Assembly (NCBI GenBank): GCA_023245155.1
Contig: JAHFKV010000001.1
Coordinates: 331,034 to 395,033, forward strand
Reading direction: 5' to 3'
Source of the DNA: Candidatus Staskawiczbacteria bacterium
Lineage (GTDB): Bacteria; Patescibacteriota; Minisyncoccia; Minisyncoccales; Staskawiczbacteraceae
DNA: 64,000 bases
Below, piece after piece: positions 56,227 to 57,366 of the stretch. Both the position numbers and the translations under genes were made by a program. The notes beneath the pieces were generated by a model, which searched no databases, had not been told where the DNA came from, and saw only the letters and a program-made list of their open reading frames with translations. Position 1 is the first letter of the stretch. The number at the start of each line of letters is the position of its first letter.

Positions 56227-57366
56227 ATGCACAAAGAAATTCTCATAGACAATTCAGAAGAAAAAGCGCTTATCAAGCAAATTGGGGCGCGCCAAGACAT
56301 TAAAGCTGAAAGATTAAAACGGGTGATGTCACTGCCAGATTTATCTCGCACAGAAGGTAGTCCACTTAAGGCGATTATTGATAAGGTGTTTGCCATCCCA
56401 GATTTTGCTGATTTTGATAATGTGATTATTCCTGAAATTATTCCAACTGATATTTTATTTGATTTGTTTGATTTTGCCAAAGATCATCCAGCGCGCAGTG
56501 AATCAGACACGTATTATGTGGACGAAAAAAATGTGTTGCGCACGCACGACACCGTTTTTTGGTATTACTATTTACATAATCCCGAAATTCAAGAAAGAAT
56601 TACCGCCAGAAAGTCATTCGGGGCTTTTTGCCACGGTAAAGTGTACCGGAAAGACGAAATTGACCGTACCCACATGAATGTGTTCCACCAATTCGGCGGC
56701 TGGTATTTAACTCCCGACTCTGAAAAAATGCTTACCATTGAAGACTTAAAAAGCGCCCTTTCCACCATTGTGAAAGGTATTTTTGGTGAAAATGTGAAAT
56801 TCAGATTCAACCCGGATGTTTTCCCATATACTGATCCAAGTTTGGAAGTAGAAATTGACGTAAACGGCAAATGGCTTGAATTGCTGGGCGGGGGAATGCC
56901 TAAAAAATTGGTACTTAAAAACTTTGGCATTGAAGGCTACAATGGTTGGGCGTTTGGGTTCGGCTTGGAGCGTCTTGCCATTGCCAAAATGGAAATTCCA
57001 GATATCAGGCTGTTTTGGTCACAAGATTCACGCGTGAAAGAGCAGTTAAAAAACTTAGAAAATAAATATAAAGAGGTCAGCAAATATCCGGCCGTTGAGC
57101 GCGACATTTCTTTTGTGATTGATAAAAATATCAGCTTGAATAATTATTATGAATTGGTGCAGGATGTGGCCGAAGGATTAATCGAAGAAGTAAAACTCAT
57201 GGACAGTTACGAAAACGATGAAAAATTCGGCATAGGGAAAAAATCATACACGTTCCACATTGTGTACAGATCTCTAGAAAAAACGCTGACGAATGAAGAG
57301 GTGAACGTGATTCACGACAAAATCGTGGAGAAGACTAAACAAGAGCTGAACGCTATAGTAAGATAG
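56227..57366 (+). CDS. pheS: Single-chain (mitochondrial-type) phenylalanine--tRNA ligase: class II core plus a C-terminal FDX-ACB domain
   Basis: [57 protein letters not shown], then [14 protein letters not shown]...[19 protein letters not shown]. Confidence 0.8.
   Translation: [379 protein letters not shown]

What the first reader, a model, noticed from the sequence alone, without database searches (positions are those of the whole stretch)
56227..57366. Mitochondrial-type single-chain PheRS in a bacterium
Canonical bacterial PheRS is an alpha2-beta2 enzyme encoded by adjacent pheS and pheT. This 379-aa protein fuses the class II catalytic core to a C-terminal ferredoxin-fold anticodon-binding (FDX-ACB) domain. 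The core motifs are [31 protein letters not shown] and [25 protein letters not shown]. The FDX-ACB domain reads [14 protein letters not shown]...[23 protein letters not shown]. It lacks the long PheS N-terminal coiled coil, and no pheT is adjacent. From memory, this domain order and several sequence strings closely parallel human mitochondrial FARS2 ([27 protein letters not shown]..DISFW). This matters for the origin of the organellar enzyme and for how a reduced genome dispenses with the editing beta subunit.
Basis: partly seen in the sequence, partly recalled or inferred. Interest (0 to 1): 0.6.

Follow-up and report, generated by a model that had tools for sequence, protein, structure and literature searches.

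The report
Single-chain PheRS replacing pheST in Patescibacteria
This small-genome bacterium, like at least ~550 related Patescibacteria species, encodes a one-piece phenylalanyl-tRNA synthetase built like the human mitochondrial enzyme, at the chromosomal position where a relative keeps the usual two-subunit genes, so it probably charges tRNA-Phe without the editing subunit that other bacteria use.

Summary
ORF 56227..57366 (+, 379 aa) is a class II PheRS catalytic core fused to a C-terminal FDX-ACB anticodon-binding domain. Its confident AF2 model matches full-length human mitochondrial PheRS (TM ~0.78).

It is not unique to this genome. At least ~550 species-representative genomes carry it, almost all labelled Patescibacteria, and NCBI mostly calls it "hypothetical protein".

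I could not read the whole source genome, but three indirect lines suggest it is the only PheRS:
- no PheS or PheT homologue in the window or in 1.35 Mb of related flanks;
- it lies in the rpsB-tsf-tRNA-Thr(UGU) neighbourhood that holds pheS-pheT in a cultured relative;
- a published CPR marker matrix contains a coherent set of well-covered genomes with FDX-ACB but without PheT's B5 domain or the PheS N-terminal domain.

It is not a curated member of pheS_mito, pheS or SrmL. In my trees it groups with other bacterial proteins, while mitochondrial enzymes group with huge-phage and giant-virus proteins; deep branches are weak.

The family has a unique paired active-site change (Gly157/Asp108). 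I found no published description.

The parts
56227..57366 (+). Complete CDS of the single-chain PheRS (379 aa plus stop)
   Evidence: ORF list; Pfam two-domain call; an identical protein P0001 lies on a 661,750-bp NCBI contig; AF2 model pLDDT 93.7.
56227..56358 (+). Short N-terminal helical segment (aa 1-44) in place of the ~90-aa PheS coiled coil
   Evidence: No PF02912 hit; AF2 secondary structure shows helices at 10-21 and 25-35; TIGR00468 alignment starts at profile position 40.
56359..57045 (+). Class II PheRS catalytic core (aa 45-273)
   Evidence: PF01409, E 1.6e-53; phmmer against E. coli PheS, E 4e-36; bacterial PheS alpha-chain structures match this part only.
56548..56550 (+). Asp108 codon: a family-specific Asp where all other PheRS-type sequences in the comparison have Thr/Met/Ala/Ile/Cys
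   Evidence: Residue table; invariant in 60 family members.
56635..56700 (+). Motif 2 through 'FHQFGG' (aa 137-158). It includes Arg141 and the family-specific Gly157, which replaces an otherwise universal Glu/Asp
   Evidence: Alignment and residue counts: G157 in 10/10 family sequences versus E/D in 86/86 others; invariant.
56821..56841 (+). 'FPYTDPS' substrate-pocket segment (aa 199-205), equivalent to E. coli F248-P-F250-T251-E-P-S
   Evidence: Alignment with E. coli and Neisseria PheS and with mitochondrial enzymes; Tyr201 replaces Phe.
56944..56976 (+). Motif 3 '[11 protein letters not shown]' (aa 240-250). It includes Ala242 (= E. coli Ala294, the specificity determinant) and Arg249
57079..57363 (+). 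FDX-ACB (PheT 'B8'-type) anticodon-binding domain (aa 285-379)
   Evidence: PF03147, E 6.6e-27, 1-94/94; TIGR00472 pheT_bact positions 690-798; tblastn with E. coli PheT hits only this region.
57373..58149 (+). Downstream 258-aa ORF of unknown function, 6 nt after the PheRS stop. It is not a conserved partner
   Evidence: No Pfam hit; no homologue next to the gene in the 80 related loci.
58358..60478 (+). gyrB, a conserved neighbour of the single-chain PheRS gene
   Evidence: Pfam domains; gyrB lies within ~0.7 kb of the gene in at least 38 of 80 related loci.
54280..56193 (+). Upstream LtaS/sulfatase-family gene, 33 nt before the PheRS start. This neighbour is specific to this lineage
   Evidence: PF27449 and PF00884. 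In the other loci this side carries rpsB-tsf-tRNA-Thr instead.

Best explanation
The gene encodes a functional single-polypeptide phenylalanyl-tRNA synthetase that most likely serves as the housekeeping, and probably the only, PheRS of this Staskawiczbacteria-like Patescibacterium.

Shown: the protein has a complete class II PheRS core. It keeps the ATP-binding arginines (Arg141, Arg249) and the Phe-pocket positions (Phe199, Tyr201, Thr202, Ala242, Gly244). This core is fused to the ferredoxin-fold anticodon-binding domain that normally ends the beta subunit. The predicted fold superposes on apo ('closed') human mitochondrial PheRS.

Inferred mechanism, by analogy with the human and yeast mitochondrial enzymes:
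- The chain works without a beta subunit.
- The core makes Phe-AMP.
- The FDX-ACB domain reads the GAA anticodon of tRNA-Phe after a hinge opening from the closed to the open state.
- Phe is transferred to the tRNA.
- There is no B3/B4 editing domain, so accuracy rests on active-site discrimination alone.

Inferred evolution: the gene functionally replaced pheS-pheT, because it sits in the same rpsB-tsf-tRNA-Thr(UGU) neighbourhood where a cultured relative still has pheS-pheT. In some lineages a free-standing copy of the beta subunit's B2 tRNA-binding domain lies directly upstream and may assist in trans; this is speculative.
For: Architecture and fold:
- Pfam finds both domains.
- The best PDB sequence hits are human mitochondrial PheRS, E ~3e-53, against 1e-33 for bacterial alpha chains.
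- The AF2 model has pLDDT 93.7 and pTM 0.88.
- Foldseek gives TM 0.76-0.79 to 3CMQ/5MGW/8P8X over the full length and 0.60 to the open tRNA complex 3TUP.

Catalytic residues: they are conserved and invariant across 60 family members.

Housekeeping character:
- Family members share 58-88% identity across many candidate orders.
- The gene is present in at least ~550 species-representative genomes.
- In the window it is embedded among core genes such as gyrB, secDF, lepA and RNase P RNA.

Replacement of pheST:
- No PheS/PheT homologue, and no B1, B3/4 or B5 fragment, occurs in the window or in 82 related loci, 1.35 Mb in all.
- In 34-35 of 80 loci the order is rpsB, tsf, (tRNA-Thr UGU), PheRS, gyrB. 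The cultured Paceibacteria genome PMX_810_sub has rpsB, tsf, tRNA-Thr(tgt), pheS, pheT (PMC10936435 supplement).
- In the anvi'o CPR marker matrix (PMC8672522 supplement), 25 of 178 CPR genomes have FDX-ACB without B5, and 24 of those 25 also lack Phe_tRNA-synt_N.
- Among the 47 best-covered genomes in part 2 of that matrix, 35 have B5, 11 have FDX-ACB without B5, and only 1 has neither.
- The B5-less genomes share a lineage signature: enolase absent, RbfA and PNPase enriched.
Against: - The source genome outside the 64-kb window could not be read, so absence of pheST in this very genome is inferred, not shown.
- The marker matrix is binary and anonymised, and pheS and pheT are adjacent, so they can be lost together from incomplete bins.
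- The synteny argument rests on a single canonical comparison genome, and its strand orientation is inferred from gene order.
- The family has lost the acidic residue of the 'FHQxE/D' motif (Gly157), which is E/D in all 86 other sequences compared. From my knowledge of the Thermus thermophilus structures, this residue contacts the substrate amino group.
- The simultaneous gain of Asp108 may compensate, but this was not tested. Tyr201 also replaces a pocket Phe.
- The protein scores below every curated NCBIfam cutoff, and its top hit is the 'mystery ligase' SrmL model.
- No tRNA-Phe gene was seen in the window or flanks, so the substrate could not be examined.
Confidence: 0.75

Rival explanations
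1. Accessory paralogue. The protein is a PheS-derived ligase with a different job, like the SrmL 'mystery ligase' of Actinobacteria, and it coexists with a canonical pheS-pheT pair located outside the window.
For: - The top NCBIfam hit is SrmL (228.7 bits), just ahead of pheS_mito.
- The otherwise universal acidic residue of FHQxE/D is Gly in this family.
- Related single-chain proteins occur as extra genes in organisms that surely have pheST: an Oligoflexia MAG and a Glutamicibacter plasmid.
- Canonical pheST exists in part of the same class.
- The whole genome could not be checked.
Against: - The score is far below the SrmL cutoff of 300. True SrmL members score 415-524 and have a degenerate pocket (His87 to Ser/Asp, Phe153 to Pro/His, Phe199 to His, Trp241 to Leu), whereas this family keeps all of these residues.
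- The gene occupies the pheST slot.
- Well-covered CPR genomes with FDX-ACB but no B5 or PheS N-domain exist as a coherent lineage.
- No pheS or pheT occurs in 1.35 Mb of related sequence.
- The family shows very high conservation and near-ubiquity.
Confidence: 0.12
2. Independent origin. The Patescibacteria enzyme arose on its own by an in-place deletion fusing pheS to the 3' end (B8 domain) of the adjacent pheT. Its likeness to FARS2 would then be convergent rather than inherited. This rival concerns origin, not function.
For: - The gene lies exactly where pheS-pheT lies in a relative.
- One deletion within an adjacent pheS-pheT pair would give this architecture.
- The fusion joins the complete PheS C-terminal tail to the very start of B8.
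- The family is separate from the mitochondrial clade.
Against: - All single-chain proteins (Patescibacteria, other bacteria, viruses, mitochondria) group together against E. coli and Neisseria PheS (100% bootstrap, but with only two outgroups).
- They share derived features: GWAFG versus GFAFG, and IPDIRLFW versus V/VxDLRxFF.
- The N-terminal coiled coil is lost in all of them.
- No canonical Patescibacteria PheS or PheT sequence could be obtained to test this properly.
Confidence: 0.25
3. Foreign or mis-assembled DNA. The gene is a eukaryotic organellar-type or viral gene that was mis-binned or recently inserted, and is not a resident bacterial gene.
For: Close architectural relatives are encoded by huge phages and giant viruses. 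One family member sits on a 4.2-kb contig binned as Nitrospira (L031).
Against: - The gene lies inside a 661,750-bp contig between bacterial housekeeping genes, with matching strand bias and GC.
- The same gene with conserved neighbours occurs in 80 of 80 inspected Patescibacteria genomes, including complete 808-kb and 829-kb chromosomes.
- It also occurs in a lineage where UGA encodes Gly, with the recoded codon at conserved Gly positions.
Confidence: 0.01

Closest known systems
Mitochondrial phenylalanyl-tRNA synthetase (human FARS2, yeast Msf1; NCBIfam TIGR00469 pheS_mito; 'PheRS-M' of AARS Online)
   Same: - Same domain order: PheS-type core followed by C-terminal FDX-ACB on one chain.
- No coiled coil and no editing domain.
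- Best full-length structural match (TM ~0.78 to 3CMQ).
- Shared motifs GWAFG.[13 protein letters not shown], SKYP...DISF.
   Different: - Only 30-35% identity, and below the curated cutoff (223.7 vs 258.35).
- Lacks the insertion after motif 2 that splits eukaryotic alignments into two stretches.
- Groups with bacterial proteins rather than with the mitochondrial/viral clade.
- Has Gly157/Asp108/Tyr201 where mitochondrial enzymes have Glu or Asp / Thr / Phe.
- It is a chromosomal bacterial gene with no targeting sequence.
Canonical bacterial (alpha-beta)2 PheRS: PheS (TIGR00468) plus PheT (TIGR00472)
   Same: The catalytic core is homologous to PheS (37% identity to the E. coli core). The C-terminal domain is homologous to PheT domain B8. 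The gene sits in the chromosomal slot that holds pheS-pheT in PMX_810_sub.
   Different: - One chain instead of two.
- No PF02912 coiled coil.
- No B1, B2, B3/4 (editing), B5 or B6-7 domains.
- Below the PheS cutoff (165.1 vs 237.45).
SrmL, 'PheS-related mystery ligase' (NCBIfam NF051887), e.g. Glutamicibacter nicotianae plasmid protein WP_005882727.1
   Same: Same two-domain architecture and similar length. It is the window protein's nominal top NCBIfam hit, and it groups on the bacterial side of the tree.
   Different: True SrmL proteins score 415-524 bits, against 228.7 here. They have lost several pocket and ATP-site residues that this family keeps. They occur as extra genes in organisms with normal pheST, for example next to a chloramphenicol efflux gene on a plasmid.
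Single-chain PheRS genes of huge phages and giant viruses (IMG/VR contigs up to 536 kb; GVMAGs)
   Same: Same architecture and prokaryote-like length (337-387 aa).
   Different: They pass the pheS_mito cutoff (260-308 bits) and cluster with eukaryotic mitochondrial enzymes, not with the Patescibacteria family. They keep the acidic FHQxE/D residue.
YtpR / TapR free-standing PheT-N-terminal (B2, tRNA_bind) proteins
   Same: The ~130-150-aa Patescibacteria proteins found directly upstream of the gene in L022 and L016 carry the same OB-fold domain (PF01588). They match PheT residues 41-148.
   Different: They score below both curated cutoffs (YtpR 74 vs 100; TapR 39 vs 120). They are adjacent to the PheRS gene in only 2 of 80 loci and are absent from the window.

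Membership tests
Mitochondrial-type single-chain PheRS (TIGR00469 pheS_mito / PheRS-M) | PheS-type class II catalytic core | tested here: met
   PF01409 at residues 45-273, E 1.6e-53.
Mitochondrial-type single-chain PheRS (TIGR00469 pheS_mito / PheRS-M) | FDX-ACB anticodon-binding domain fused to the C-terminus of the same chain | tested here: met
   PF03147 at residues 285-379, E 6.6e-27, full domain.
Mitochondrial-type single-chain PheRS (TIGR00469 pheS_mito / PheRS-M) | Full-length fold like human mitochondrial PheRS | tested here: met
   AF2 model pLDDT 93.7; TM 0.76-0.79 to 3CMQ, 5MGW and 8P8X.
Mitochondrial-type single-chain PheRS (TIGR00469 pheS_mito / PheRS-M) | Score at or above the curated equivalog cutoff (258.35 bits) | tested here: not met
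   223.7 bits. The sister protein P0121 and the phage proteins do pass.
Mitochondrial-type single-chain PheRS (TIGR00469 pheS_mito / PheRS-M) | Phylogenetic placement inside the mitochondrial clade | tested here: not met
   It groups with P0121, a lineage that reads UGA as Gly, Oligoflexia and SrmL proteins. The split from the mitochondrial/viral clade has 99% bootstrap in the 94-sequence tree but only ~50% in the extended tree.
Mitochondrial-type single-chain PheRS (TIGR00469 pheS_mito / PheRS-M) | Acts as a monomer that charges tRNA-Phe without a beta subunit | not testable with these tools
   This needs biochemistry.
Canonical bacterial PheS (TIGR00468) | Curated cutoff of 237.45 bits, and the N-terminal coiled coil (PF02912) | tested here: not met
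   165.1 bits; no PF02912 hit.
Canonical bacterial PheS (TIGR00468) | Partner pheT gene adjacent or elsewhere in the genome | tested here: inconclusive
   Absent from the window and from 1.35 Mb of related loci. The rest of the source genome is not readable.
SrmL PheS-related mystery ligase (NF051887) | Curated cutoff of 300 bits | tested here: not met
   228.7 bits, against 415-524 for true members.
SrmL PheS-related mystery ligase (NF051887) | Divergent substrate pocket (Ser/Asp for His87, Pro/His for Phe153, His for Phe199, Leu for Trp241) | tested here: not met
   The window protein and its family keep the PheRS residues at all of these positions.
Bacterial PheT (TIGR00472) | B3_4 editing, B5 and B6-7 domains | tested here: not met
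   Only profile positions 690-798 (B8) match; there are no B3_4 or B5 Pfam hits.

The most novel reading that the evidence does not exclude
The alpha-core + B8 fusion that defines mitochondrial PheRS did not originate in eukaryotes. On this reading it is an old prokaryotic or viral invention, maintained as the sole PheRS across several Patescibacteria classes and carried by huge phages. Eukaryotes would have obtained FARS2 from that pool, possibly from a phage, as is proposed for the mitochondrial RNA polymerase and replication proteins. Patescibacteria would then be the first cellular lineage known to translate with an editing-free monomeric PheRS.
Probability: 0.3. Interest if true: 0.8.

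Novelty: new variant of a known kind. Interest (0 to 1): 0.62.

Why it matters
Textbook and database classifications describe bacterial PheRS as an (alpha-beta)2 enzyme and treat the single-chain form as mitochondrial (PMC11580382, PMC10810186).

If a whole bacterial radiation relies on a single-chain PheRS without the B3/B4 editing domain, several things follow:
- The beta subunit is dispensable in free-standing cells, not only in organelles that make very few proteins.
- A natural system becomes available to ask how Tyr and meta-Tyr mischarging is tolerated or avoided without editing.
- NCBI labels this protein 'hypothetical', and marker sets that include pheS/pheT (such as GTDB bac120, from my own knowledge) would score these genomes as lacking those markers.
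- Bacterial and viral relatives become available for rooting the long-unresolved origin of FARS2.
- The compact 379-aa enzyme, with its unusual Gly157/Asp108 active site, could interest synthetase engineers.

Tried and rejected
1. Direct search for pheS/pheT in the source genome. This was not possible: only +/-10 kb around window genes is retrievable.

2. Obtaining a Patescibacteria PheT or PheS seed sequence.
- The B2-protein search returned only free-standing B2 proteins and no long PheT.
- The RpsB-profile search returned only close single-chain lineages.
- No canonical Patescibacteria sequence was obtained, so the in-place-fusion hypothesis stays untested.

3. Literature searches for a prior description. 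Nothing was found. Kantor 2013 and the Minisyncoccus paper supplements say nothing on PheRS, and the Parcubacteria streamlining paper has no KO table.

4. A viral scan with a single phage protein found nothing. An alignment was needed.

5. Deep phylogeny. Only neighbour-joining with my own code was possible. Clade B is unresolved, and the A/B split fell from 99% to ~50% when viral sequences and a faster alignment were used. I therefore make no claim about which group is ancestral.

6. Free-standing B2 as an obligatory partner. Rejected: it is adjacent in only 2 of 80 loci and absent from the window.

7. Downstream 258-aa ORF as a partner. Rejected: it is not conserved next to the gene.

8. Leader, T-box or attenuator. 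There are no Rfam hits, and the upstream gap is only 33 nt.

9. tRNA-Phe identity elements. No tRNA-Phe gene occurs in the window or in 51 loci.

10. Geometry of Asp108/Gly157.
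Full report
**1. The observation**

ORF 56227..57366 (+) encodes 379 aa. Its start is fixed by an in-frame TAA three codons upstream. Pfam finds a PheS-type class II core at residues 45-273 (PF01409, E 1.6e-53) and a complete FDX-ACB domain at 285-379 (PF03147, E 6.6e-27). There is no PheS N-terminal coiled-coil domain. The human FARS2 strings it recalled from memory are real (alignment). 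No other PheS-like or PheT-like ORF exists in the 64-kb window.

**2. The organism**

- Almost all genes are on the + strand and GC is about 42%.
- RNase P RNA is bacterial class A.
- The identical protein lies on a 661,750-bp NCBI contig.
- The closest named homologues are from Candidatus Staskawiczbacteria and other Parcubacteria/Paceibacteria.
- Neighbouring genes are ordinary bacterial housekeeping genes: secDF, pgk, murJ, lepA, glmS, gyrB.

The gene is therefore a resident gene of a small-genome Patescibacterium.

**3. Structure and closest solved relatives**

By sequence, the best PDB matches are human mitochondrial PheRS (E ~3e-53). Bacterial alpha chains score ~1e-33 and match the core only. 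An AF2 model built on 60 family members is confident (pLDDT 93.7, pTM 0.88). Foldseek places it on human mitochondrial PheRS over the whole length (3CMQ, 5MGW, 8P8X: TM 0.76-0.79, ~31% identity). The fit to the open tRNA-bound form 3TUP is poorer (TM 0.60), so the model is in the closed apo-like conformation.

**4. Distribution**

The protein belongs to a large, tightly conserved family.
- The 120 best hits in the protein database are all two-domain proteins of ~376-402 aa (one 327-aa fragment) at 61-100% identity. NCBI names them 'hypothetical protein' and JGI names them 'PheRS alpha chain'.
- The best 80 are almost all labelled as Patescibacteria lineages or as unclassified bacteria: Staskawicz-, Zambryski-, Nomura-, Kaiser-, Taylor-, Yanofsky- and Doudnabacteria, Paceibacterota, Minisyncoccia. 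They include complete 808-kb and 829-kb chromosomes. The one exception is a 4.2-kb contig in a bin labelled Nitrospira.
- A more distant member (P0127) has 13 in-frame TGA codons that fall at conserved Gly positions. That contig therefore uses genetic code 25 and comes from a Gracilibacteria/Absconditabacteria-type organism.

The family thus spans several Patescibacteria classes.

**5. Is it the only PheRS?**

The whole source genome could not be read, so this rests on indirect evidence.

(a) Related flanks. E. coli PheS and PheT were used as probes against the window plus 82 related loci (1.35 Mb). PheS matches only the single-chain gene itself. PheT matches only that gene's C-terminal part and two small B2 ORFs. 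There are no B1, B3/4 or B5 fragments. With genomes of ~0.7 Mb this null result alone is weak.

(b) Canonical PheST does exist in part of the class. The cultured PMX_810_sub (Minisyncoccus lineage) has a 681-aa PheT (B3_4, CLM, B5, FDX-ACB) next to a 353-aa PheS that carries PF02912. The stored part of that table shows no second PF01409 or PF03147 gene (PMC10936435 supplement).

(c) Synteny.
- In PMX_810_sub the gene order is rpsB, tsf, hypothetical, tRNA-Thr(tgt), hypothetical, pheS, pheT.
- In 34-35 of the 80 single-chain loci, rpsB and tsf lie 0.4-5 kb from the single-chain gene.
- tRNA-Thr(UGU) lies between them, or within a few kb of the gene, in about 25 of the 51 loci scanned for tRNAs.
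- gyrB lies on the other side, within ~0.7 kb in at least 38 of 80 loci.
- The gene is co-directional with rpsB-tsf in 9 loci and on the opposite strand in 26. Where gyrB could be placed, the gene order is the same.

The single-chain gene therefore sits in the pheS-pheT slot.

(d) Marker matrix. This is a published matrix of single-copy Pfam markers for CPR genomes (PMC8672522, supplement 1).
- Of 178 genomes read, 25 have FDX-ACB but not B5, and 24 of these also lack the PheS N-terminal domain. Among genomes with both B5 and FDX-ACB, 54 of 85 have that domain.
- In canonical PheT, B5 and FDX-ACB are on one protein. FDX-ACB without B5 therefore marks a B5-less FDX-ACB protein.
- Among the 47 best-covered genomes of part 2, 35 have B5, 11 have FDX-ACB without B5, and only 1 has neither.
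- The B5-less genomes are as complete as the others and share a lineage signature: enolase 0.19 vs 0.80, RbfA 0.88 vs 0.41, PNPase 0.50 vs 0.10.

Taken together, I judge it about 75% likely that this gene is the sole PheRS of the organism.

**6. Active site**

These residues are conserved across the family: motif 2 Arg141, His149, Gln155, motif 3 Arg249, and the pocket positions equivalent to E. coli F248/T251/A294/G296 (Phe199, Thr202, Ala242, Gly244).

Three features are peculiar:
- Tyr201 replaces the second pocket Phe. This is shared with other clade-A proteins.
- Gly157 replaces the acidic residue of 'FHQxE/D-G', which is Glu or Asp in all 86 other sequences compared.
- Asp108 replaces Thr/Met/Ala in 'RTHxS/T'.

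The sister protein P0121 keeps Thr108 and Asp157, so the last two changes occurred together on the branch leading to this family. From my knowledge of the Thermus thermophilus structures, the FHQxE glutamate (alpha Glu220) helps hold the substrate's amino group. A relocation of the carboxylate to position 108 is a plausible reading, but I did not test it. This is the main internal reason for caution about substrate specificity.

**7. Family membership**

The window protein scores 228.7 on SrmL (cutoff 300), 223.7 on pheS_mito (cutoff 258.35) and 165.1 on pheS (cutoff 237.45). It is a curated member of none. True SrmL proteins score 415-524 and have a degenerate pocket; examples are Glutamicibacter plasmid protein WP_005882727.1, P0217 and P0209. 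This family is not SrmL.

**8. Phylogeny**

I used neighbour-joining with my own code, so the results are limited.
- With E. coli and Neisseria PheS as outgroups, all single-chain proteins group together.
- In the 94-sequence L-INS-i alignment of both domains, a split with 99% bootstrap separates clade A from clade B.
- Clade A holds this family, P0121, the P0125/P0127 pair (P0127 reads UGA as Gly), the Oligoflexia protein P0123, and SrmL.
- Clade B holds genuine mitochondrial enzymes (Schizosaccharomyces Msf1, a chytrid, a fern, a locust) together with short proteins from phage-like contigs.
- After adding 40 IMG/VR proteins with a faster alignment, the split kept only ~50% support and clade B stayed unresolved.

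What holds is that no eukaryotic sequence nests in the Patescibacteria family, and that viral proteins, not this family, sit with the mitochondrial enzymes. The direction of transfer and the root are open.

**9. Mechanism proposed**

Shown: domain content, conserved catalytic residues, and a closed FARS2-like fold.

Inferred by analogy with FARS2 and Msf1: the chain acts without a beta subunit, forms Phe-AMP in the core, and opens at the inter-domain hinge on tRNA binding. The FDX-ACB domain then reads the GAA anticodon. No post-transfer editing is possible because B3/B4 is absent.

The gene has a 33-nt gap upstream, a 6-nt gap downstream, and no leader element. It is probably co-transcribed with its neighbours.

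**10. Novelty**

The searchable literature describes PheRS-M as mitochondrial-like (PMC11580382, PMC10810186). It notes only that CPR PheRS-beta often lacks B2 (PMC5370408). I found no description of a bacterial single-chain PheRS. The sequences are already in public databases, but they are unnamed or misnamed. I rate this a new variant of a known kind.

Noticed in passing
L022:9572-9979 (+) and L016:~9570-9990 (+), immediately upstream of the single-chain PheRS gene: There are free-standing ~130-150-aa copies of the PheT 'B2' tRNA-binding OB-fold (PF01588; E. coli PheT residues 41-148). They belong to a conserved Patescibacteria family: the 120 best hits are all 119-172 aa at 58-100% identity, and JGI names them 'PheRS beta chain'. 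They score below the YtpR and TapR cutoffs. They are adjacent to the PheRS gene in only 2 of 80 loci. They may be a trans-acting tRNA-binding helper.
   Followed up: partly
L083, L084, L085; L091-L136 (IMG/VR contigs up to 536 kb and GVMAG contigs): Huge phages and giant-virus MAGs encode short (337-387 aa) single-chain PheRS proteins. These pass NCBIfam's pheS_mito cutoff and cluster with eukaryotic mitochondrial enzymes. The contexts are typical phage DNA (PhageMetallopep, PcfJ, Thy1, dCMP deaminase).
   Followed up: partly
L088:9463-10833 and L089:154-1524: A 456-aa family relative (P0127) has 13 in-frame TGA codons. The database translated them as Trp, but they align with invariant Gly positions (for example in motif 3). 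That indicates genetic code 25, so the contig comes from a Gracilibacteria/Absconditabacteria-type organism. An F-type ATP synthase operon lies next to it.
   Followed up: yes
window 56548-56550 and 56695-56697: There is a paired, family-specific active-site change: Asp108 (others Thr/Met/Ala) together with Gly157 (others always Glu/Asp in FHQxE/D). The sister protein P0121 has the ancestral pair. This may be a relocation of the carboxylate that binds the substrate amino group.
   Followed up: partly
L086:5983-7101 (Glutamicibacter nicotianae plasmid pGnB68, NZ_CP142605.1): A true SrmL 'mystery ligase' (524 bits) sits on a plasmid ~480 nt downstream of a Cmx/CmrA chloramphenicol efflux gene. 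One 180-kb viral contig (L135) also carries a protein that groups with SrmL.
   Followed up: no
window 17938-21196 and 28077-33061: There are two low-GC islands (37% and 34%, against ~43% elsewhere). The first carries an EcoO109I-type restriction enzyme, a DNA methylase and an AAA ATPase. The second carries a FAD-binding oxidoreductase, a CYTH protein, an AAA protein and a pyridoxal-dependent decarboxylase. Both are probably acquired DNA.
   Followed up: no
window 27046-27296: A tRNA-Met, tRNA-Met, tRNA-Asp cluster lies here. The same three-tRNA cluster lies within 0.1-3 kb of the single-chain PheRS gene in several related genomes (L035, L042, L043, L058, L077), which suggests rearrangement in the window's lineage.
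   Followed up: no
window 13856-14259 (-): RNase P RNA (bacterial class A, 110.6 bits, just above the gathering score of 100) is one of the very few features on the minus strand of this window.
   Followed up: no
window 8844-10598: A TrwB/TraG-type coupling-protein ATPase (type IV secretion/conjugation-like) lies next to pgk. Such systems have been described in Patescibacteria.
   Followed up: no
L031 (JBEBJM010000053.1, 4.2 kb): A family member at 61% identity sits on a short contig in a MAG labelled Nitrospira. This is most likely a binning error rather than a real occurrence outside Patescibacteria.
   Followed up: no
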